Below, piece by piece: positions 20,066 to 41,876 of a stretch of 64,000 bases of DNA (positions are counted from its first letter, which is position 1; each line of letters begins with the position of its first letter). The notes under the pieces were generated by a model. That model saw nothing but the letters and a program-made list of their open reading frames with translations. It was not told where the DNA came from and searched no databases. Source of the stretch: an uncultured Candidatus Saccharibacteria bacterium (lineage in GTDB: Bacteria > Patescibacteriota > Saccharimonadia > Saccharimonadales > Saccharimonadaceae); assembly GCA_937858705.1 (NCBI GenBank), contig CALLZM010000002.1, positions 2,046 through 66,045 on the forward strand, written 5' to 3'. The position numbers were made by a program, and so were the translations under genes.

Positions 20066-21160
20066 CTAGGAGGCTACACAACGAACAGCAAACCCATAGA
20101 GCTTACTGCCGGCGACCATAACGACGCCGGAGCTGAAGAAGCTCAAGTGGCGGCCGTAGGTGGCTGAGTACTGCGTAGACGACCGGTAGAAACCGTTGCT
20201 ACCCTGAGAGTTGAACCCGCCGCTGTACCAGCTGCCACTCCGCTGCGCCAGCCACTCGCTACGCAGACCGGCGTCAGTGGTGGTGAGTCCGCTGTTGACT
20301 GCGTTGTTGAGGAGGGTGAATTCGTTGGTGGGGCTTTGTGTGGGGAGGCGCCAGTTTGCTGGGCAGATGGAGATGGTAGTGTTTACAGCTGTAGAGACTG
20401 AATCACTACATGCACCATTGCCAGTCTGTCCACCATTGGCAGCACAGAAGTTGTACAGATAGCCATATTGAGGGTTGGTTACTCCACCGTCTGTGGAAGT
20501 GCTTGGTTGAGTGGGGTTGGTAGTAGGGTTTGCTCCGGTGGGGATGTAGTATTTAGCGAGGGCGTAAGTAACAGAACCAGAGTTGTCTGGACCGTGGAGA
20601 GTGCCGTTAGAGCCGTCTCCGGTGGGGATGGTGTCGCTGTAGGTATTCACCCCTCCCCCAGCATACGCCAAGTTCGTCAACATCCAGCATTTGCCGTCAG
20701 CGAGTTTTTGCACCCAATAGGTTTTGTTATCTCGTGCATCGACAGCCATGGTCCTAGTAGTTGGGCAGTTGGCAGTGGTGATAGATTGCATGAAGGAGCC
20801 ATTGGCGATAGCATCGTTGTTTCCGCCTCCACTGCTATCTCCTGTAGTGAAGAGTGTGTAGGGGCCATGAGGAGAGGAAGAAGAGTAAGTGGTGTAAAAC
20901 TTGTCTCCTGGTTTTTGTCCAGTGAGAGAATCGAAGGTGGCTTGGTCTTCTGGGTAGGAGTCGTTTTCTACTTTGTAAGTCTCTAGTTTCTTTTTGGCTG
21001 TAGACTCTTTGGAGGCAATAGCCGAGTCGGTGGCGCGTTGCCGTATACCATTGTAGGCAACGATGCTAATAGTGGCGAGAATGGCAATGACGATGACAAC
21101 AATGAGGAGTTCGACAATGGTGAAGGCAGGGTAAAATGATGTGGTACGAGATTTTCTCAT
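20066..21160 (-). CDS. type IV pilin-like N-terminus fused to a Fibrobacter succinogenes major paralogous (FISUMP) domain
   Basis: N-terminus [37 protein letters not shown]-terminus [49 protein letters not shown]. The longest ORF begins at 21196. Confidence 0.75.
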
Positions 21161-21263
21161 AGTTCTTATGGCAGCATACTCTCTCTCACCTGTCATTTTG
21201 TCAACTCATGCCACTATATTGCTTATAGTTGCATATTTTTGACCGATGAGCTATTTTATTTAA

Positions 21264-24583: not shown

Positions 24584-26829
<2,246 letters not shown>

Positions 26830-31424: not shown

Positions 31425-32687
31425 CTAAATTCTCAATATTTTATTGATTTTATCTTTAACGCTATCGGTATCATTACTTTCTATTGTATCACAACCAACT
31501 CTTAGGAGACCTGTCGCCGTGATGAAGGTATGGTCATTTACCTTTCCCGTTTGGTCAACAATACCCACAATATCGCTCGGCTTCACCAGTTGCACCTTGG
31601 GCTTATGCGAAAATGGCAATTCTTCGTACCATTTTTGCTCACTCAGTGCTTCGACTAACTGCTCGAGACTCGCGCCGCCGCCACAGAGCAGCAACTTACT
31701 TGGCAAATGATCGACAGTGTCAAACTCACTGAGCGCTAACTCTACACCATCCAGCCACACCTCCAGCGTCTTATCAATAGCCTTCATAGCAACCTTCTTG
31801 ACATCGGGCTTTATTTTTTCATGAGATAAGTTCAACTTCAGCTTCTCTGCTTCTTCATACCCTACACCAAGTTCATTCGCAATGGTGCGCGTAAAGCTCC
31901 GACCACCGATGCCAAACATCTTCGTCCCCTCAACACCACCGTCATTTACCACAGCGATATCCGTCGTACCACCGCCAACATCGGCTAAAATTGCCGTAAA
32001 ATTGCTGTTGGCGTCATCGCCCAATACACTACGGCTTACCGCAAAAGGTTCAGCTGCTACAGCTATGAGATCAAGCGCCAATTCATCGGCTACTTTCTCG
32101 AGCGCTCCGATATGAATCATCGGCGCAAACGCTGTGTATATTTGTACCGCGACATCTTTCCCCTGAAATCCCACTGGGTTTGTCACCTTATAGCCATCGA
32201 TATGAATGCTCACAAGTGCGCTATTGACCAACTTCACCTCAACATCTTCATTACCCGTCTCGAGTGCTATCTGCTTTTGGGCTTTTTGAGCTGCTCGTTC
32301 CTGTACTTTTTCGATAATAAACTCCATCTCGGCGATATCGAGAGGCTTATCTGGCTGTGGTCGACGATAACGAATCGTATTCGTGACACCTTTTACGAGC
32401 TCGCCAGCAATACCGATGACTGCCTGTTTGGCTTGCAGCCCCGCCTCTTCTTCAGCCTGAGCCAGCGCATCTTCGCAATTTCGTACCACACTTGTAATAT
32501 CAGCAATCGCACCACCATACATGTCACCCATGCCCTGGTGCGTCCGTCCAACACCGATGACCTCTAGCGATCCGTTGGCAACACGAGCAATTAGCGCTTT
32601 TACATTTTCAGTACCAATATCGAGCCCGACGAGTAAATTTTTGGTAGTATTCTGATTCGTAAATGTGAAAATATTCTTCAAAGACAT
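31425..32687 (-). CDS. actin-like ATPase, FtsA/PilM-like cell-division protein
   Basis: LVGLDIGTENVKALIARV..., ILADVGGGTTDIAVV, FGIGGRSFTRTIA. Start set at MSLKNIF (37 codons inside the longest ORF). Confidence 0.75.
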   Translation of the reverse strand: MSLKNIFTFTNQNTTKNLLVGLDIGTENVKALIARVANGSLEVIGVGRTHQGMGDMYGGAIADITSVVRNCEDALAQAEEEAGLQAKQAVIGIAGELVKGVTNTIRYRRPQPDKPLDIAEMEFIIEKVQERAAQKAQKQIALETGNEDVEVKLVNSALVSIHIDGYKVTNPVGFQGKDVAVQIYTAFAPMIHIGALEKVADELALDLIAVAAEPFAVSRSVLGDDANSNFTAILADVGGGTTDIAVVNDGGVEGTKMFGIGGRSFTRTIANELGVGYEEAEKLKLNLSHEKIKPDVKKVAMKAIDKTLEVWLDGVELALSEFDTVDHLPSKLLLCGGGASLEQLVEALSEQKWYEELPFSHKPKVQLVKPSDIVGIVDQTGKVNDHTFITATGLLRVGCDTIESNDTDSVKDKINKILRI

Positions 32688-32727
32688 ATGAATATAGTAT
32701 ATACTTCTCATGCTTTTGGGGCAAATA

Positions 32728-32756
32728 TTGCATTCTCGATAATTTTGTGATATAAT
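32728..32756 (+). promoter_or_regulatory. consensus-like promoter TTGCAT-17-TATAAT, -10 only 6 nt from the ATG at 32763
   Basis: Hand-counted spacing. Predicts a leaderless or near-leaderless mRNA. Confidence 0.6.
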
Positions 32757-32762
32757 AGGAGT

Positions 32763-33584
32763 ATGGACCAAGATCCAAGTGAAATAGAGCCCTTCCAGCA
32801 ACAGATTATGCTCGAAAATCTGGGCTATTCTTTAAAAAGTGTCCACGAAGCGGTCACTGATCCATTCGCACCCCCCCCCTCGACAGTCGAAACCTCACTA
32901 TTCGTTCCAAGCAGTGAAATAAGACAGGCAACTGGCCGGTATGGTTTTGCCCTATCGACACTCTTAGATAAGAACAATATATGGCAAGAGTTAGGTCTCG
33001 CACATGCCTCTCTCAGTTTCCAAAAAAATGGCTCTACCATAACATTGCATCGACCGCCGAATCGTTCAAGATGGCAACTATCGGAAAATGGCCTCGGCAG
33101 CAGAGCTATTCCATTTGATAGTGTTGCTGCACTCGCTCTGCCAATATTTAAACACCCGAACGATATCACACGGAACCTTCTCGATGAAAGAGTGAATGAG
33201 CAAACCATGCTTGATGCACTTGGACAACAAGCAAGAGACAGTAAAGGGCGAGGAACAGTAGACAGAACATACCTGTTCAAATATCCGTCGACCGGTAATC
33301 ATGTGTACTTCAGGTCTACCGTCGATCAAGATGAAACACCTATCAAATACCGCCTTGGCATTGTAGGAAAATATCATTTGGGAGAAATGGTAGTCACAGA
33401 ACACATCAGAGCCAAGACTCGACTGCCTCACCCCACTAATCATCTACGACAAACCGATACTTCTGTGGAGTTTAAGCAAAAAATCGATTGCGGAAACGGT
33501 CGAAGCAGAAAACCCTCCGATTATAATACCCTAGAAAATATCATCATAGCTCTCGCCGAGGCGGCGAAGCGCATATCCGCCTAA
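32763..33584 (+). CDS. hypothetical protein carrying an in-frame C9 tract
   Basis: 273-aa ORF with no recognisable domain. Codons 37-39 (PPP) are the C9 run. Confidence 0.55.
   Translation: MDQDPSEIEPFQQQIMLENLGYSLKSVHEAVTDPFAPPPSTVETSLFVPSSEIRQATGRYGFALSTLLDKNNIWQELGLAHASLSFQKNGSTITLHRPPNRSRWQLSENGLGSRAIPFDSVAALALPIFKHPNDITRNLLDERVNEQTMLDALGQQARDSKGRGTVDRTYLFKYPSTGNHVYFRSTVDQDETPIKYRLGIVGKYHLGEMVVTEHIRAKTRLPHPTNHLRQTDTSVEFKQKIDCGNGRSRKPSDYNTLENIIIALAEAAKRISA
32871..32879 (+). repeat. homopolymer C9 inside a CDS
   Basis: gca ccc ccc ccc tcg read directly. Confidence 0.9.
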
Positions 33585-34529: not shown

Positions 34530-36584
34530 CTAGCGAACTTTGAACGCATCGATATAGATGTATTTGCCACTCACCTTTTTCACGGTGATAGTATGTTTGC
34601 CCGGCTTCAGACCGCTGCGGGTAAACGATGCGTGTTGGTATTTGCGGTACTTTTTTGGATGCTTGAGGTTGAGGTCGACGCGTGTTGGTGTGCCGCCGTC
34701 GATGCTGACATCTATCACACCTGAGTAATTGTTCGATTCATTGAACGCAGTGATGCTCGTGCCCGTAAAGGTCATGGTCATGGAGTCGCCGTTCTTAGAG
34801 GCACGATGAATCGTCCGACCAAAGTCAGGCGAAGTATCTTTGCGGTTTTTATAGGCATTCCAGCCCGAACCGGTGTATGTGATACGACTATCCATGTCGT
34901 CAATCAGCGTCGTGTCATTGTAAGTGCGTTCGTTGCCAAATGAATCTTTAACGACCAGTTTGTACTGTAGTGAAGTGCCGACCGGGACATCTGTGTCGAC
35001 ATAGGTCCACGATTTCGACTGCCACCAGTTGGCCGTCACCGTCTTTGTCGCTAGTTTGGTGCCGTCGAGGCGATAGAGCACATAGGTCAGTTTGACATTG
35101 TCATTATCGCTCGTCGTATAGACCGTCACTGTGGACTCTTTTTTGCTATTTGCTGGCGTTGCACTTACACCATAGCCAGCGTGGCGATACGGATTTGGCC
35201 CAACTTTGTTTGGCGCCTTGGCTGTAGTCGTAAATCGCACCAGCCCCTGCTGCGGCACACCACCGACCGCTGGGAATTCACCACCAATAGAGAGATAGTC
35301 TGTATTACCAACAATCGTCCAGCCGGCCTGCGCAGAACTACTCTTATTGCCGACGGTAAACTTGGGATACCAGTGAAGCAGTTCGCTGTGGTAATACCCG
35401 TCGAAAATATTCTTTGTCGGAGCTGTCGTTTCAGCAGCAACATGATGAATCGGCTGCAGCTGCGGATACATGTCAGGATACCCGCCGATGGCCGAACATT
35501 CATGTGGATGCCCTACCGAGTAGAGAATACCGCCAACCGGCACAGCGTCGTAGCTGTCGCCCTTGCACGCATTACGCCAGATGATGTTGCCGTTTGATGG
35601 GTTGATAGCCGCTCGTCCTTCAAAAGTACCAGACCCCGTCGCCCCTTGCAGATAGCTAAAGGCCGTGAAATATGCCTGCTTTCCGTCGTAGCTCGCGCTC
35701 GTGAAGCCCATACTGCTATAGGTCAATTCCTTGCCCGGCGCAGGCTTACTTATTTGCATACGGATGGGATAACTCGAGCTCTGGCTAGCCCACTTCACTT
35801 TTTTGGCAGTGTCGAGCTTGACAGCACCCGATGACAGATAGGTGCTGCCGGCAATCTGCGTGAATGCCCCAGTGATGATAAGGTTGTTTTGTTTGGACGC
35901 CACGGTCAACGCCGCCACTCGTGAACCACGCGGACCAGTCACATCTGCCTTCCACTTCGTGTCGAGCTTGCCGTTTGCCAGATACGCCGCCAAGTTGTTC
36001 CGAGGCTGGCCTGCCGCCTTGCTAAAGCCGCCACCGACATAGACTCGCTCGTTCGTCGCGGCTAGGGCCATGACACTATTGCTCGTACCATCAAAGCCTT
36101 TGAGAAGTTTGTTTGTCTTTAGGTCAAACGCGGCGAAATTACTACGAGGCTGGCCATCTACCGTGTCAAAATTACCGCCGACATAGAGCCGCGTGCCGTC
36201 TGGCGAAGCAGTCACCGCAGCGACGACTTTTTGCGATGGCTTTTTTGTAGTGATAGAGTGGACAAACGAGGTATCTAGCACTCCGGTACGGATGTCAAAC
36301 GCGAGGATATTTGTGCGTTTCACAGTGCCTTTTCCACCAAGCGCCACGCCCGCTGGTCGCGCATAGGCGAAGGTTCCGATCGCATAGACTTTGTTACCTA
36401 CCAGCACCTGGTCCCACACCATGCCGTCTACCTGCACAGTTGGTAACGGGTCGGCCGACATCGTAGCCAGTGTTTTACTCGAGGGTGGCGCTGTGTCTGC
36501 TTGTACTGGTGATATAAGTACTATCGCCATACCGATTGCAGCAATCATCACTCCATATTGTTGTACGCGATCACGAAATGACAT
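34530..36584 (-). CDS. secreted beta-propeller repeat protein with C-terminal beta-sandwich (carbohydrate-binding-like) domains
   Basis: 684 aa with a signal peptide (MIAAIGMAIVLISPVQA) and repeated xYVGGxFxxxxGxxRxNxAAxD units. Confidence 0.65.
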   Translation of the reverse strand: MSFRDRVQQYGVMIAAIGMAIVLISPVQADTAPPSSKTLATMSADPLPTVQVDGMVWDQVLVGNKVYAIGTFAYARPAGVALGGKGTVKRTNILAFDIRTGVLDTSFVHSITTKKPSQKVVAAVTASPDGTRLYVGGNFDTVDGQPRSNFAAFDLKTNKLLKGFDGTSNSVMALAATNERVYVGGGFSKAAGQPRNNLAAYLANGKLDTKWKADVTGPRGSRVAALTVASKQNNLIITGAFTQIAGSTYLSSGAVKLDTAKKVKWASQSSSYPIRMQISKPAPGKELTYSSMGFTSASYDGKQAYFTAFSYLQGATGSGTFEGRAAINPSNGNIIWRNACKGDSYDAVPVGGILYSVGHPHECSAIGGYPDMYPQLQPIHHVAAETTAPTKNIFDGYYHSELLHWYPKFTVGNKSSSAQAGWTIVGNTDYLSIGGEFPAVGGVPQQGLVRFTTTAKAPNKVGPNPYRHAGYGVSATPANSKKESTVTVYTTSDNDNVKLTYVLYRLDGTKLATKTVTANWWQSKSWTYVDTDVPVGTSLQYKLVVKDSFGNERTYNDTTLIDDMDSRITYTGSGWNAYKNRKDTSPDFGRTIHRASKNGDSMTMTFTGTSITAFNESNNYSGVIDVSIDGGTPTRVDLNLKHPKKYRKYQHASFTRSGLKPGKHTITVKKVSGKYIYIDAFKVR

Positions 36585-36727
36585 AATTTCTCTCCCATAG
36601 ACACTTAGACAGCTATATTTTATAACTTAAGCGTATTATATCACAAAGTTTATTAAAATGCAATATTTAGCTATAGTCATACTATAGTGACAGGAAATGG
36701 AAGCTTTCGCCCAATAGGCACTGGCGC

Positions 36728-37378
36728 TTACTTGATGGATGTAAGCGCTCGCAGCACCGCTATACCATCCATGGCTTTTTGATTTACCACAGCATCTTCT
36801 GAGCAGGGAGCATGCGGACCTGTATATATCAATGACGAGCCATCGCTATATTTCTTGTAAATCGTCCTGTCCGTATACGGGTCTAAGCTGCTCACTTTAC
36901 TGAAAGCGCCCAGAGGTCCGTTCTCAGAGCCGCAATATTCACCGCCTTGCTGAGTAACATATTTCGTAGAGAAACTCACCGATTCCGCCAGTGAACCATT
37001 TTGCCCCTTTGTAGCTTTATAGCTATAAGTCAAATCACCAAGCGACTCCGGAAGCTCCATAGTTATATCTAGCTCTCGGATATATAATGTTGTCGTATCA
37101 GAAGATTTCTTAGCCGTCTCCTCGGTAGGTTTATTTGCTGCACTACTTTTCAGCTCGGCAATTTGCTTCTCATAGTCACCTATCTTTGTTTGCAATGCCT
37201 GCATATCGCCTGTTTCCGCCACTGGTGCACGATTTTGCATCGCTCCATATACCGAATAGCCGATGCTAGTTAGTGCCAACAGAGCCAAAAGAATAACTCC
37301 AGCTCGCCTTAACCCCTTTCGTTCTTTTTTCTGATTGTTTGGTTCGCTCATTGGTTGTGTGTATTGATTGCTGTCCAT
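36728..37378 (-). CDS. hypothetical membrane-anchored protein
   Basis: MDSNQYTQPMSEPNNQKKERKGLRRAGVILLALLALTSIGYSV... The longest ORF (to 37429) would place the G10 tract inside the CDS. Confidence 0.55.
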   Translation of the reverse strand: MDSNQYTQPMSEPNNQKKERKGLRRAGVILLALLALTSIGYSVYGAMQNRAPVAETGDMQALQTKIGDYEKQIAELKSSAANKPTEETAKKSSDTTTLYIRELDITMELPESLGDLTYSYKATKGQNGSLAESVSFSTKYVTQQGGEYCGSENGPLGAFSKVSSLDPYTDRTIYKKYSDGSSLIYTGPHAPCSEDAVVNQKAMDGIAVLRALTSIK

Positions 37379-37395
37379 GCATTCATAGTAACATA

Positions 37396-37405
37396 CCCCC
37401 CCCCC
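37396..37405 (-). repeat. homopolymer C10 (G10 on the coding strand) in the CTAG-Gn-TAT promoter module
   Basis: Read directly. Flanked on the minus strand by ...tgCTAG and TATGTT. Confidence 0.9.
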
Positions 37406-37450
37406 TAGCAAGATTATCACTAGGGGCATAAAAAAGATAAGGCAGTGCTT

Positions 37451-37779: not shown

Positions 37780-38339
37780 CTACAGTACATAATAGCCAGT
37801 GAATCGACAGTCCTCATCATAGCCAGTTTGCGCAAAGTAAGGCTGGCACGGATGCTCATCCTTAAATTCACCAGTAGCTCCTACGGTATAAAGATGCCAT
37901 ACTTTCTCTGCCCAATTCCAATAAGCATAATTGATGACAATTCCATCGAAAGATAGTGCTACATAGATCTTCTGCGTATCAAAGCGAGGAATTTCTCCTA
38001 CGACTAGGTCTGGGTAGCATGATATATCAAATTCTCTTATGCACAATTTTTCAGACAGTCCCGATAGGCCATTCGCTGCAAGAAATTCAGAGCGTGTCAT
38101 CGTAAGATGATGTCCCTCTCCCCCGTATGGAGTAATTGTCGAGTAACCCTGTGGGTGGGTCACTTTATTAGATTTGAGCGTAGTATTGAGACTTTTTTTG
38201 CAGTTGCCGCCATGGATGAGTCTGCTGCTCGATGTTGTATGCCCGTGTAACCTACGATGCCAATAGCGGCAAGAATGGCGATGATGATAATGATTATCAA
38301 GAGTTCGACAATAGTGAATCCGGCTGTGGTTTTCCTCAT
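37780..38339 (-). pseudogene. type IV pilin-like gene split by a frameshift at an A7 tract (pseudogene, phase-OFF allele or -1 PRF)
   Basis: Frame A (38339->38160) gives [59 protein letters not shown]. The 3' 430 nt are open in the -1 frame (ORF 37780..38376). One extra A or a -1 slip joins them. Confidence 0.65.
38193..38199 (-). repeat. homopolymer T7 (A7 on the coding strand) at the pilin frameshift site
   Basis: In frame A it reads gcA AAA AAA Gtc, an X_XXY_YYZ slippery heptamer. Confidence 0.9.
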
Positions 38340-38346
38340 AGATATG

Positions 38347-38376
38347 AGTATACCCCCCCCCTAGCAGTGATGTCAA
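38347..38376 (-). promoter_or_regulatory. promoter TTGACA-18-TATACT with a G9 tract (38353-38361) in the spacer
   Basis: -35 is the reverse complement of 38371-38376 and -10 that of 38347-38352. The -10 lies 7 nt from the pilin ATG. Confidence 0.6.
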
Positions 38377-38772: not shown

Positions 38773-39843
38773 TTATTTGCATGCATTCGCATCAGGCTTT
38801 GGTCCACTCCAGGTAGGATACTCCTGACCATAATAGCGCGTCCAAAAGCCCATACTCTTCGCCTGGGCTAGATTCTTTTCTCTGTCCGCCCTCATTTCTT
38901 TGGTAGTGATGTATGCTTTTGCTTTCTTATCATTCACCGCTTTGAGAAGTTTGGCTAATAAGTTTTTACTTTGCCATTGTGATGATTCTTTCAGCTCAAA
39001 CTGTAAGGCTATCCCAGACCTTGCAGCTTGTGCGATAATATCTTCCACTTTGTGAATGTTATAAGTATAGACTTTACCCTTATACTCATGCTTGTGCTCC
39101 AATCGCTTTATAACATTCCAATTCAGATCACCAACCCCTCCCTGTTTCACAGGATTTTTAAGATTGGTATCTACAAAACCCGCCTCATACCCCTTAGCAA
39201 AAACATCGGCAGTGTGAGTAGCCACTATTACGCCATCTTTAGTAACGCGTAAGTCAATGTCGATTCGGGAGAATTTCTTGCCTTCACTTCCCTTAGCATT
39301 CCCTTCAGCAGCATCCTTAACACCCTGCGGAGAGTTTTCATATGCATAAGGAATCTGGGGCTCTCCATTTTTATCTGCTGGAATATGGTATATCTCTCCC
39401 GACGGAGCTTCATTAGGATTCCAATAGCACCCCTTGACCACGCTCACATGAGTGTGAGCAGAAACAACCTTGGAGTCACCTATCATTCCATCGTTATTGC
39501 GAGCTATGATAACAAAGAAGTAAGTGGTACCTTCTTTGAGACTAGTGACTTCCCTTGAAGTACCTTCCGAACTAATAGTAACCGATTTTTCAAACGATGG
39601 TGAAGCCGAATATATCAATGAATAATTCTTGGCCGACTTGTAGGCTTTCCACTGTACTGTGATTGCGTTTTTAGAGTTTGCAGCTACCGTCAGTCCGGTT
39701 ACTTTAGCGGCGCATCCCGCCTTCAGTCTTGGCTCTATAGCGTCTGGTGCATCAACTAGGCATAGCTTCTTCCAAGTTCCTGGACCGACAGTACCGCTAA
39801 CTCCCAGACCTCTTGACTCTTGAAATTTCTTGACAGCTTTCAC
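38773..39843 (-). CDS. PG-binding / fibronectin-III / glycerophosphodiester-phosphodiesterase-like protein, apparently 5'-truncated
   Basis: The ORF begins mid PG_binding_1 domain (VKKFQESRGLGVSGTVGPGTWKKL). The rest of the domain lies upstream behind an in-frame TGA. FN3: ITVQWKAYKSAKNYSLIY...GTTYFFVIIARN. GDPD-like: FSRIDIDLRVTKDGVIVATH. No signal peptide. Confidence 0.55.
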   Translation of the reverse strand: MKAVKKFQESRGLGVSGTVGPGTWKKLCLVDAPDAIEPRLKAGCAAKVTGLTVAANSKNAITVQWKAYKSAKNYSLIYSASPSFEKSVTISSEGTSREVTSLKEGTTYFFVIIARNNDGMIGDSKVVSAHTHVSVVKGCYWNPNEAPSGEIYHIPADKNGEPQIPYAYENSPQGVKDAAEGNAKGSEGKKFSRIDIDLRVTKDGVIVATHTADVFAKGYEAGFVDTNLKNPVKQGGVGDLNWNVIKRLEHKHEYKGKVYTYNIHKVEDIIAQAARSGIALQFELKESSQWQSKNLLAKLLKAVNDKKAKAYITTKEMRADREKNLAQAKSMGFWTRYYGQEYPTWSGPKPDANACK

Positions 39844-39977: not shown

Positions 39978-41876
39978 TCAGGCGAGGACGCCTTTAACGC
40001 GGCGGATACCAGCAGAGGAGGATTCTTCTTTGGTGATTTTGAAGCGTTTGCCGTTGGGCGTGCCATCGTCATTTTGTGAGAGCTGACCAGTATGGTCGGC
40101 GTGGGGGCCGCCGCAGATTTCAAAGCTGGCGCGCCTGTCGCCCTCGCCCATTTGGTAGACTTTGACCGTCTCGCCGTAGCGGTCACCAAATGCGCCGATG
40201 GCACCCATTTTGAAAGCTTCGTCGGTAGGATATTCTTTGTAGCTGACGGGTAAATCTTCGTCAATCCAGGCGTTGACCATGCGTTCGACTTCGTCCAGCT
40301 GCTCGCGGGTGACTTTTTCGTCGTTGTTGAAGTCAAAGCGTAGGCGCTCTTCAGTGATATTGCTGCCGTGCTGGGTGACATGCTCGCCAACGACTTTTTT
40401 GAGTGCGGCATACATGAGGTGATTGGCCGTGTGTAAGCGGCGGTGCGCCATGGTTTGCCCGCCGAGGCCGCCTTTGAAGACACCTTTGGCAGCAGTCTGT
40501 GAGCGCTTGCGCTGTTCTTGCATACAGGCATCAAACTCACTCTTCCAATCTTTGTCTAGCCGTATACTTTCACGACGGGCTATCTCGGTGCTTAGCTCAA
40601 CTGGAAAGCCATAAGTATCGTGCAGAGTGAATAGCTCTTTGCCGGTCAAACCGTCTTCAATAAATCGCCTGAGATGCTTTACTCCCTTCAGTAGTGTTCG
40701 CGTAAACGCTTTTTCCTCCTTCATGAGAGTGATGATAATTTTATCTCGGTTCTCGGCAACTTCTGGAAAATCATTCGCATATAAGTCGGCAATGACTGGT
40801 ACAATTTCTTCAAAAAATTCTTCACTAATACCAAGTTCATTTGCAAATCGAATCGCCCGACGGAGCAGCCGACGCATAACATAGCCCTGCTCTTTGTTGC
40901 TCGGCGCACAACCATCAACCGCCAAGAAGGTCGCCGCACGCAGGTGGTCGGCGATGACGCGCATACTTTCGGTGTGGCTTTCGTACTTTTTGCCACTCAG
41001 AACTTGCAACTTTTCGATAATTGGCCACATGAGGCTAATCTTGAAGACATCCGGGTCGCCCAGTTTTGCCGCGGCAATGCGCTCCAGGCCAGAGCCATGG
41101 TCGATATTTTTCTGTTCCAGCTCTTCAAATTGCCCTTCCGCGACTTTGCGATAGGCCATGAAGACATTGTTGCCGATTTCCATAAACCGGCCACAGTCAC
41201 AGTTCGGGTGGCAGTGCTCGCCAAACTCGGGATTGTGTGGCGTGCCAAAGTCATAAAACATCTCACTATCTGGGCCACACGGGTCGCCCACCGGGGTGGT
41301 TTCTGGCGAACCGTTGCGACTCCACCAGTTTTTCGAACCGTCATAGTAGAAAATCCGCTCGCCTTCTTTAATGCCGCGTTCATAGCCCGATTCTTCCGAA
41401 CCAATATCCGCTTGACCATGACTCAGCCCGGCTTTTTCATATAGCTCTGCCCACACCTCGGCCGCTTCTGTATCTTTTGGAATACCATAGCGCTCATCGC
41501 CGATATAGCAGGTGACATAGACTTTTGACATATCGAGCTCAACCACTTCTGACAAAAACTCCCACATCCAGCGGATTTGCTGTTCCTTAAAGTAATCGCC
41601 CATGCTCCAATTACCCAACATCTCAAAAAAGGTCGTGTGGCGATTGTTGCCGACATCGTCAATATCCTGCGCACGCAGGCACGTTTGTGAATCAACAATT
41701 CGTTTACCCTCAGGGTGTGGCTGCCCCAACAGGTACGGAATCATCGGCTGCATACCACTGCCCGTAAACAGCGTCGTCGGGTCGCCCGTCAGCACCAATG
41801 GCGCGCGCTTGATAGCAGCGTGGCCACGATTCTCAAAAAACTTTATATACGCATTGCGGATTTGTTGAGTATTCAT
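39978..41876 (-). CDS. alaS: alanine--tRNA ligase, short form lacking the C-Ala domain
   Basis: MNTQQIRNAYIKFFENRGH..., FTGSGMQP, editing-domain HTANHLMYAAL and CGGPHADHTG. 632 aa from this Met. Confidence 0.9.
   Translation of the reverse strand: MNTQQIRNAYIKFFENRGHAAIKRAPLVLTGDPTTLFTGSGMQPMIPYLLGQPHPEGKRIVDSQTCLRAQDIDDVGNNRHTTFFEMLGNWSMGDYFKEQQIRWMWEFLSEVVELDMSKVYVTCYIGDERYGIPKDTEAAEVWAELYEKAGLSHGQADIGSEESGYERGIKEGERIFYYDGSKNWWSRNGSPETTPVGDPCGPDSEMFYDFGTPHNPEFGEHCHPNCDCGRFMEIGNNVFMAYRKVAEGQFEELEQKNIDHGSGLERIAAAKLGDPDVFKISLMWPIIEKLQVLSGKKYESHTESMRVIADHLRAATFLAVDGCAPSNKEQGYVMRRLLRRAIRFANELGISEEFFEEIVPVIADLYANDFPEVAENRDKIIITLMKEEKAFTRTLLKGVKHLRRFIEDGLTGKELFTLHDTYGFPVELSTEIARRESIRLDKDWKSEFDACMQEQRKRSQTAAKGVFKGGLGGQTMAHRRLHTANHLMYAALKKVVGEHVTQHGSNITEERLRFDFNNDEKVTREQLDEVERMVNAWIDEDLPVSYKEYPTDEAFKMGAIGAFGDRYGETVKVYQMGEGDRRASFEICGGPHADHTGQLSQNDDGTPNGKRFKITKEESSSAGIRRVKGVLA

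What the first reader, a model, noticed from the sequence alone, without database searches (positions are those of the whole stretch)
37780..38339. Pilin gene split at an A_AAA_AAA_G site: pseudogene, phase-OFF allele or programmed -1 frameshift
A textbook prepilin N-terminus ([31 protein letters not shown]...) runs from 38339 and stops at 38160 after 59 codons. The remaining ~430 nt of pilin-sized coding sequence are open in the -1 frame (the ORF-track entry 37780..38376). The frames switch at the A7 run (38193-38199). In the zero frame this run reads gcA AAA AAA Gtc, an X_XXY_YYZ slippery heptamer of the dnaX type. Either one extra A or a -1 ribosomal slip gives a continuous ...AATAKK-SLNTTLKSNKVTHPQGY... 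product. Together with the G9 promoter tract, this gene would have two independent switches.
Basis: partly seen in the sequence, partly recalled or inferred. Interest (0 to 1): 0.6.

Follow-up and report, generated by a model that had tools for sequence, protein, structure and literature searches.

The report
Pilin gene broken by A-run expansion
One of 23 pilus-subunit genes in a tiny Saccharibacteria-type bacterium is knocked out of frame by two extra A's in a short A-run, while a sister strain keeps the intact gene, so this looks like an ordinary recent switch-off mutation and not a special decoding device.

Summary
A minus-strand prepilin gene starts at 38339 and stops after 59 codons at 38160. 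The remaining 137 codons are open in the -1 frame to 37780, and the frames meet at the A7 run 38193-38199.

The A7 is not a one-off error. The same A7 stands in four further public assemblies that match the window almost exactly.

Four contigs from a sister strain (about 0.5% divergent) carry A5 instead, which gives an intact 185-aa pilin. In an alignment with 121 related pilins, the A5 length fits the N-terminal helix with no gaps. The product of an A8 allele or a -1 slip would carry an extra lysine in mid-helix, and no relative has a residue there. So A7 is a derived +2 expansion.

Nothing supports programmed frameshifting:
- No hairpin lies 5-9 nt downstream of the heptamer, and no Shine-Dalgarno-like stimulator lies upstream.
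- The frameshift is not conserved in any relative.
- 87 equivalent heptamers sit in ordinary long genes of this genome.

The genome has no MutS or MutL domain, so homopolymer indels should be common. Best reading: a strain-specific null (OFF) allele of a dispensable, fast-evolving pilin paralogue, slowly reversible at most.

The parts
38347..38376 (-). Sigma-70-type promoter TTGACA-18-TATACT. The -10 box ends 7 nt before the ATG, so the mRNA is probably leaderless.
   Evidence: The scan gives 11 of 12 matches with an 18-nt spacer. Sequence read. The same module stands in front of 6 other pilin paralogues.
38353..38361 (-). G9 homopolymer inside the promoter spacer. Its length varies between assemblies.
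   Evidence: G9 in the window and GCA_035326945.1. G10 in ERZ794926, GCA_035326905.1, SRR2107183 and the three A5-strain contigs that cover it. It is one of 42 G/C runs of 8-14 nt in the genome.
38160..38339 (-). Zero-frame ORF of 59 codons plus TGA. It encodes the prepilin leader MRKTTAG, the cleavage/methylation motif G|FTIVELL, and alpha-1 helix residues up to K48. After that come 11 out-of-frame residues.
   Evidence: Pfam N_methyl PF07963 scores 21.6 bits against a cut-off of 21.2. The exact 59-aa product is on record from NCBI annotation.
38193..38199 (-). A7 run (T7 on the + strand). This is the site of the frame break. The sister strain has A5 here.
   Evidence: A7 in 5 assemblies and A5 in 4 contigs. 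A5 is linked to T38142C.
37780..38193 (-). Rest of the pilin in the -1 frame (137 codons plus TAG). It covers the C-terminal half of helix alpha-1 and a beta-sheet globular domain with 4 Cys.
   Evidence: It is 98-99% identical to the intact 185-aa alleles P0001 and P0124. Motifs CIREFD and GYDEDCRFTG are shared with P0002. The AF2 model of the A5 allele has pLDDT 81.6, a helix at 10-60 and then 6 strands.
38142..38164 (-). Nearest local RNA hairpin (8 bp, 7-nt loop). It overlaps the zero-frame UGA and starts 29 nt after the A run, too far to act as a -1 frameshift stimulator.
   Evidence: The first 28 nt after the heptamer are unpaired locally.
38142..38142 (-). SNP linked to the A-run state. 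TCG (Ser66) goes with A7 and CCG (Pro) goes with A5.

Best explanation
The gene is a type IV prepilin paralogue, one of 23 pilin-like genes in a 0.9-Mb Saccharibacteria-type genome. In this strain a +2 expansion of a short A run (A5 to A7), in the middle of the codons for the N-terminal alpha-helix, has thrown it out of frame.

Shown:
- The A7 allele is real and fixed in this strain.
- A closely related strain carries the in-frame A5 allele.
- The A5 length is the one shared by the whole pilin family.

Inferred:
- Translation from the leaderless start ends after 59 codons, so no assembly-competent pilin is made. This is a null or OFF allele.
- The loss is tolerated because pilin paralogues are many and their C-terminal domains turn over fast.
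- The genome lacks MutS and MutL, so indels in homopolymers should be frequent. This explains both the origin of the lesion and the possibility of rare reversion (to A5 or A8).
- The tract is too short and too stable between assemblies to be a dedicated high-frequency switch.
- Any full-length protein from RNA-polymerase or ribosome slippage on A7 would be a minor by-product carrying an abnormal extra lysine.
For: - A7 stands in the window and in 4 other assemblies. These match the window over 4-6 kb except for G9/G10 and one SNP patch.
- A5 stands in 4 contigs from 4 other metagenomes. It gives an intact 185-aa protein and is linked to a downstream SNP.
- In a MAFFT alignment of the first 62 mature residues of 121 pilins plus the hypothetical A8/-1 product, that product alone needs an inserted residue. 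No sequence has any other gap in the first 55 columns.
- The junction lies in a confidently modelled helix (residues 10-60; pLDDT 90-92 for residues 41-60).
- No structure lies within 28 nt downstream of the heptamer, and I saw no SD-like motif upstream.
- 34 A_AAA_AAA and 53 A_AAA_AAG heptamers in the shift-prone phase occur in 398 ordinary long ORFs.
- Among all A/T runs of 6 nt or more, this is the only convincing split gene. Most of the A8-A9 runs lie in frame inside long ORFs.
- Only 1 of 23 pilin-like genes is broken.
- No MutS_V or MutL domain was found in the 96%-complete genome.
- The neighbourhood shows other strain-specific decay. The ORF at 38773-39843 starts in the middle of a PG_binding_1 domain, and the A5 strain has a 2.87-kb deletion next door.
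- In N. lyticus TM7x, several minor-pilin mutants had no detectable phenotype (PMC11623550).
Against: - The downstream 137 codons are still fully open and 98-99% identical to the intact alleles, so functional use of the downstream frame cannot be excluded from DNA alone.
- A5 to A7 needs two +1 steps or one +2 step, within about 0.5% of strain divergence. That hints at a raised indel rate at this site and would also fit recurrent switching.
- The A7 run does form a canonical X_XXY_YYZ heptamer, and tRNA-Lys(UUU) is present.
- The five A7 assemblies are nearly clonal, so they do not represent long-term maintenance of the frameshift.
Confidence: 0.72

Rival explanations
1. The A run is a true contingency tract. 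Slipped-strand mispairing moves it among A5, A6, A7 and A8 often enough that each population holds ON and OFF cells. It would act as a second, translational switch on top of the promoter poly-G.
For: - Both an ON length (A5) and an OFF length (A7) exist in nature in otherwise 99.5%-identical DNA.
- Two indel steps separate them, against only about 5 SNPs per kb.
- The genome lacks MutS and MutL.
- The gene belongs to a pilin subset with variable poly-G promoters.
Against: - The A length is invariant within each strain (5 of 5 assemblies A7, 4 of 4 contigs A5) and is strictly linked to a SNP. In the same assemblies the G tract does vary.
- A5-A7 is shorter than the tracts this genome seems to use for switching. 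G/C runs are bimodal with a peak at 9-10 nt, while A/T runs decay smoothly (252 of 7 nt, 17 of 8 nt, 2 of 9 nt).
- No A6 or A8 allele was seen.
Confidence: 0.12
2. The A7 allele is expressed by recoding. Either a -1 ribosomal slip on A_AAA_AAA or RNA-polymerase stuttering to A8 yields a low but functional amount of full-length pilin (AATAKK-SLNTT), which could suit a low-abundance minor pilin.
For: - A canonical heptamer sits in the zero frame.
- The downstream frame is intact.
- tRNA-Lys(UUU) and mnmA are present.
Against: - No hairpin or pseudoknot lies 5-9 nt downstream, and no SD-like element lies upstream.
- The frameshift is absent from the closest allele and from all 121 relatives.
- The product would have a one-residue insertion in the middle of helix alpha-1.
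- 87 equivalent heptamers occur in ordinary genes. Any A7 run forms such a heptamer in 2 of its 3 phases, so the motif follows from the mutation and is not evidence of design.
- A separate tRNA-Lys(CUU) exists, unlike in E. coli.
Confidence: 0.08
3. The A7 is a sequencing or assembly artefact, and the organism really has an in-frame run.
For: Homopolymers are the classic site of indel errors. No reads could be inspected.
Against: - The same A7 appears in 5 assemblies from different pipelines (a SPAdes-style ENA contig, two NCBI MAGs, Logan, and the window's genome), which differ from each other at the G tract.
- The in-frame allele differs by 2 nt, not 1.
- Most of the longer A8-A9 runs elsewhere lie in frame inside long ORFs, and no other A/T run splits a gene.
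Confidence: 0.03
4. The truncated 59-aa product (leader plus N-terminal helix) is itself the useful product, for instance in DNA uptake. In Neisseria gonorrhoeae the first 38 mature pilin residues suffice for transformation competence.
For: The truncated ORF keeps the cleavage motif and 41 native mature residues. The precedent is PMC4877100.
Against: The genome has 22 other intact pilin-like genes that supply the same N-terminal domain. The sister strain keeps the full gene. Nothing indicates selection for truncation.
Confidence: 0.03

Closest known systems
Homopolymer-indel pseudogenes and OFF alleles of surface genes in bacteria without MutS/MutL repair (for example the Campylobacter jejuni and Helicobacter pylori contingency genes; from my own knowledge)
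   Same: A mononucleotide-run indel breaks a surface-structure gene. In-frame and out-of-frame alleles coexist in closely related strains. No MutS or MutL domain is detectable. The genome also holds about 40 long poly-G tracts.
   Different: The tract here is a short A run (5-7 nt), below the usual length of dedicated switches. It is fixed within each strain, whereas the promoter G9/G10 tract of the same gene does vary.
E. coli dnaX tau/gamma and IS-element -1 programmed ribosomal frameshifting on A_AAA_AAG or A_AAA_AAA
   Same: The zero-frame heptamer A_AAA_AAA sits at the frame junction, and the zero-frame stop lies a few codons downstream (15 codons).
   Different: There is no downstream stem-loop at 5-9 nt and no upstream SD-like stimulator. 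The frameshift is not conserved in any relative. The closest allele lacks the heptamer altogether (A5).
Neisseria pilC poly-G and pilE frameshift phase variation of type IV pilus components
   Same: A pilus component is switched off by a frameshift in a homopolymer. A truncated N-terminal pilin product is possible (PMC4877100).
   Different: Neisseria tracts are long G runs that switch at high frequency. Here the coding tract is A7 and no within-strain variation was seen.
Type IV pilins of Saccharibacteria (Nanosynbacter lyticus TM7x; PMC11623550)
   Same: Multiple pilin genes per small genome. The N-terminus is conserved and the C-terminal domains are poorly conserved. The predicted shape is a 'lollipop'. 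Several minor pilins are dispensable.
   Different: This pilin's C-terminal domain has only a handful of relatives (P0002-P0004, P0047). None were found in the 8 other genomes of the genus. It has no significant PDB fold match.

Membership tests
Type IV pilin (class III signal peptide proteins) | Prepilin-peptidase cleavage/N-methylation motif G|F-T-x-x-E with Glu5 and a hydrophobic N-terminal helix | tested here: met
   The sequence reads MRKTTAG|[22 protein letters not shown]. Pfam PF07963 N_methyl gives E 1.5e-4 and 21.6 bits, just over the 21.2 cut-off. The motif is invariant across the 13-sequence alignment.
Type IV pilin (class III signal peptide proteins) | Long alpha-1 helix followed by an antiparallel beta-sheet globular domain | tested here: inconclusive
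   The AF2 model of the intact A5 allele has a helix at 10-60 followed by 6 strands (pLDDT 81.6). Foldseek against PDB gave no match with E below 0.1 and no pilin among the top 50.
Type IV pilin (class III signal peptide proteins) | Pilus assembly machinery in the same genome | tested here: inconclusive
   A PilM/FtsA-like protein is encoded at 31425-32801 (PF11104, E 1.3e-10), and there are 22 other pilin-like genes. PilB, PilC and PilD were not searched.
Programmed -1 ribosomal frameshift (dnaX / IS type) | Slippery heptamer X_XXY_YYZ in the zero frame at the junction | tested here: met
   The run reads gcA AAA AAA Gtc at 38199-38193. However, 87 such heptamers occur in ordinary long ORFs.
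Programmed -1 ribosomal frameshift (dnaX / IS type) | Stimulatory RNA structure 5-9 nt downstream and/or an SD-like sequence upstream | tested here: not met
   The first 28 nt downstream are locally unpaired. The nearest hairpin starts at +29. The upstream sequence CAUCCAUGGCGGCAACUGC has no GGAGG or AGGA motif.
Programmed -1 ribosomal frameshift (dnaX / IS type) | Conservation of the frameshift and slippery site among homologues | tested here: not met
   The closest allele is in frame with A5. All 121 related pilins are single-frame and gap-free at this position.
Programmed -1 ribosomal frameshift (dnaX / IS type) | A trans-frame protein product is detected | not testable with these tools
Simple-sequence contingency locus (phase variation) | Tract length polymorphism giving ON and OFF alleles in closely related DNA | tested here: met
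   A5 (ON) is in 4 contigs and A7 (OFF) is in 5 assemblies, with about 0.5% flanking divergence.
Simple-sequence contingency locus (phase variation) | Length varies within one strain or population at high frequency | tested here: not met
   At the level of assemblies, no variation was seen within the A7 strain (5 of 5) or the A5 strain (4 of 4). The promoter G tract does vary in the same set. Read-level mixtures could not be tested.
Simple-sequence contingency locus (phase variation) | The tract is long enough to be hypermutable and is over-represented in the genome | tested here: not met
   A/T runs decay smoothly (252 of 7 nt, 17 of 8 nt, 2 of 9 nt). G/C runs are bimodal with 42 tracts of 8-14 nt.

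The most novel reading that the evidence does not exclude
The A7 allele is not dead. In a bacterium without mismatch repair, and perhaps with slippage-prone decoding of A runs, the tract would throttle the gene in a heritable way. Most ribosomes would make a 59-aa N-terminal stub. A few per cent of transcripts or ribosomes would slip to give a full-length pilin variant with one extra lysine. DNA slippage would occasionally restore A5 or A8. Together with the G9/G10 promoter tract, this would give one variable pilin a two-layer (transcriptional and translational) rheostat.
Probability: 0.1. Interest if true: 0.5.

Novelty: new member of a known kind. Interest (0 to 1): 0.2.

Why it matters
By itself it matters little. 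It is a recent loss-of-function allele of one redundant pilin gene, and it illustrates how homopolymer indels erode or toggle surface genes in a Saccharibacteria-type genome without MutS or MutL.

Its practical value is as a caution. A 'textbook slippery heptamer' at a frame junction is an automatic by-product of an A-run indel, so it is not evidence for recoding.

The context is more interesting:
- Strain-level turnover at this locus takes two forms: a frameshift in one strain and a 2.87-kb deletion of two surface-protein genes in the other.
- The genome holds 42 poly-G/C tracts, many in the promoter spacers of leaderless pilin genes. This points to extensive surface variation in an episymbiont whose pili mediate host contact.

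Tried and rejected
- **Genome-contig scan with the fused protein:** no relatives.
- **Metagenome-contig scan with the A5 allele:** only one distant N-terminal match.
- **Genus-level genome search with the C-terminal 137 aa:** no orthologue in the 8 other genomes. No dN/dS or deep-conservation test of the downstream frame was therefore possible. The A5 and A7 alleles differ by only 1-2 substitutions.
- **Foldseek of the AF2 model against PDB:** no significant hit, only weak matches to propeller blades.
- **Search for a frameshift-stimulating hairpin:** only a distant hairpin at +29 that overlaps the stop codon.
- **Systematic homopolymer errors in the assembly:** rejected.
- **Literature search for phase variation or homopolymeric tracts in Saccharibacteria:** nothing on point.

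Full report
**Observation**

On the minus strand an ATG at 38339 opens a textbook prepilin N-terminus, MRKTTAG|[42 protein letters not shown]. This frame ends at TGA 38162-38160 after 59 codons. The -1 frame is open from 38376 to TAG 37782-37780. The only homopolymer between the two is A7 at 38193-38199, read gcA AAA AAA Gtc in the zero frame. Re-reading one A gives a 186-aa product...AATAKK|SLNTTLK....

The promoter is TTGACA-18-TATACT, with G9 at 38353-38361 in the spacer. Its -10 box ends 7 nt before the ATG, so the mRNA is probably leaderless. The description is correct in every coordinate.

**Organism and gene family**

The window is contig C2:2046-66045 of a 910-kb, 31-contig, 47% GC genome estimated at 96% complete. 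Named database relatives of the pilin are 'Candidatus Saccharibacteria' proteins.

The genome holds 23 pilin-like genes with the G|FT(I/V)VE motif, and only this one is interrupted. Seven of them, including this one, carry a poly-G tract of 9-12 nt directly before a TATACT-like -10 box (ATACACT at one locus) that sits 6-7 nt from the start codon. A TTGAC(A)-like -35 precedes the tract wherever the contig reaches that far.

**Is the downstream part pilin?**

Yes. The fused sequence finds an intact 185-aa protein at 98% identity (P0001) and a second at 99% (P0124). More distant full-length pilins also match: P0002 (41% identity over 98% of the length), P0003, P0004 and P0047. They share C-terminal motifs such as CIREFD and GYDEDCRFTG.

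An AlphaFold2 model of the intact allele has mean pLDDT 81.6, a helix at residues 10-60 and then a six-stranded beta domain. The junction, K48/S49, lies in the best-modelled part of the helix. Foldseek against PDB found no significant match. The fold assignment therefore rests on architecture and sequence, not on a structural hit.

**Is A7 real?**

I aligned the DNA of all public contigs that carry the exact products.

| Allele | Where found | Product |
|---|---|---|
| A7 | window, ERZ794926, GCA_035326905.1, GCA_035326945.1, SRR2107183 | broken, 59 aa |
| A5 | ERZ15186057, JGI 3300045387, ERZ28615020, JGI 3300045325 | intact, 185 aa (...AATAK-SLNTT...) |

- The four other A7 assemblies are identical to the window over 4-6 kb, apart from the G tract (G9 or G10) and an 11-SNP patch in alaS. 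They are one near-clonal strain assembled independently.
- The A5 contigs differ by about 5 SNPs per kb. One of these SNPs, T38142C (Ser66Pro), is linked to the run length.
- Most of the A8 and A9 runs elsewhere in the genome lie in frame inside long ORFs.
- A scan of all homopolymers of 6 nt or more, using codon-usage scores per frame, found no other convincing A/T-run split.

A sequencing artefact is therefore very unlikely.

**Which state is ancestral?**

I aligned the first 62 mature residues of 121 related pilins together with the hypothetical A8/-1 product. No sequence has any gap in the first 55 columns. The single exception is the column created by the second lysine of the A8/-1 product, which no other sequence fills.

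The A5 allele is in exact register with the family. For example, it matches P0004 at L, L, K and N across SLNTTLKSN. So A5 is the family length, and A7 is a derived +2 expansion.

**Programmed frameshifting?**

The heptamer is present, but it is uninformative:
- Any A7 run forms A_AAA_AAA or A_AAA_AAG in two of its three phases.
- A homopolymer indel necessarily leaves a homopolymer at the junction.
- In 398 long ORFs of this genome, 34 A_AAA_AAA and 53 A_AAA_AAG heptamers sit in the shift-prone phase.

The other defining features of programmed frameshifting are absent:
- The 28 nt after the run are locally unstructured. The nearest hairpin (38164-38142) starts at +29 and overlaps the stop codon.
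- No SD-like motif lies upstream.
- The genome has both tRNA-Lys(CUU) and tRNA-Lys(UUU). E. coli has only the UUU species, and that is what makes A_AAA_AAG so shifty there (from my own knowledge).
- Above all, the frameshift is not conserved. The nearest allele lacks both the shift and the heptamer.

Programmed -1 frameshifting fails three of its four testable defining features.

**Phase variation?**

ON (A5) and OFF (A7) alleles do coexist in nature. Two indel steps in a 5-7-nt run, over only about 0.5% divergence, suggest a raised indel rate. This fits the absence of any MutS_V or MutL domain in the genome (each family is found in 11 of 14 control genomes).

Against a dedicated switch:
- The A length is fixed within each strain and linked to a SNP.
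- In the same assemblies the promoter G tract does vary.
- A/T runs show no excess of long tracts, whereas G/C runs are strikingly bimodal: 348, 44 and 5 for lengths 5-7, then 7, 16, 12, 4, 1, 1 and 1 for lengths 8-14.

I read the A run as an ordinary mutational hotspot. It is at most slowly reversible, and it is not a dedicated switch.

**Context**

The neighbourhood shows other strain-specific decay.
- The upstream ORF 38773-39843 begins in the middle of a PG_binding_1 domain.
- The A5 strain lacks window 34579-37445. That segment holds the G10-promoter 233-aa gene and most of the 684-aa propeller/CE2_N protein. The last codons of the 684-aa gene remain, so this is a deletion in that strain.

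Each strain has thus lost different surface genes at this locus. In N. lyticus TM7x, several minor-pilin mutants had no detectable phenotype, and pilin C-terminal domains are poorly conserved (PMC11623550). This makes the loss of one paralogue plausible.

**Verdict**

This is a real, strain-specific frameshift (null or OFF) allele of a variable pilin paralogue, created by a +2 A-run expansion (confidence about 0.72).

| Rival reading | Confidence |
|---|---|
| True A-tract phase variation | 0.12 |
| Functional rescue by slippage | 0.08 |
| Sequencing or assembly artefact | 0.03 |
| Functional 59-aa stub (precedent PMC4877100) | 0.03 |

It is a new member of a well-known kind, and its interest is low. 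The genome-wide set of poly-G promoter tracts is the more notable feature, but it is a separate finding.

Noticed in passing
whole genome G000; in the window 32871-32879, 37396-37405, 38353-38361: G/C homopolymers are bimodal: 348, 44 and 5 for lengths 5-7, then 42 tracts of 8-14 nt. About 15 of these lie between a TTGAC(A)-like -35 and a TATACT or TGCTATAAT -10, just upstream of apparently leaderless ATGs. 7 of 23 pilin-like genes carry one. Assembled spacers are mostly 18-20 nt. The tract in front of this pilin is G9 or G10 in otherwise identical assemblies.
   Followed up: partly
whole genome G000: No MutS_V (PF00488) or MutL (PF01119) domain is detectable in the 96%-complete genome. Each family is found in 11 of 14 control genomes. 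This fits a mismatch-repair-free background for homopolymer instability.
   Followed up: partly
window 34579-37445: The sister (A5) strain lacks this 2.87-kb segment, which holds the G10-promoter 233-aa gene and most of the 684-aa beta-propeller/CE2_N surface protein. The last codons of the 684-aa gene remain, so it is a deletion in that strain. It is seen in 4 contigs (L010, L016, L017, L018).
   Followed up: partly
window 40215-40254 (alaS): Eleven substitutions within 40 nt, mostly spaced in threes (third codon positions), separate the window from L012-L014, which are otherwise identical over 6.3 kb. This is either a recombination patch or a mixed-strain consensus.
   Followed up: no
G000 C6:112416-112424 (outside the window): A G9 tract separates a 201-codon frame from a 280-codon kinase-like frame (HGDFKLKN) on the same strand, shifted by one base. 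It is a candidate intragenic poly-G OFF state.
   Followed up: no
window 38773-39843: The 356-aa ORF (PG_binding_1 / FN3 / GDPD) starts at profile position 32 of 57 of the PG_binding_1 domain, so its 5' end appears to be lost.
   Followed up: partly
G000 contig ends: C26:43-52 / C28:4-13 and C7:9856-9863 / C31:4-11: Two pairs of contigs end in the same poly-G promoter sequence (G10-TATACTCGAAACATGAGTAAAACC... and G8-TACACTATATACCATAAC...). The assembly therefore breaks at poly-G tracts, and these contigs probably abut.
   Followed up: no
window 24584-25537 and 20066-21196: A reverse transcriptase (RVT_1, E 2.3e-15) lies near a 376-aa pilin-like protein with a Fib_succ_major-type C-terminal domain. 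Earlier notes report a complete DGR here (e1-3022720).
   Followed up: no
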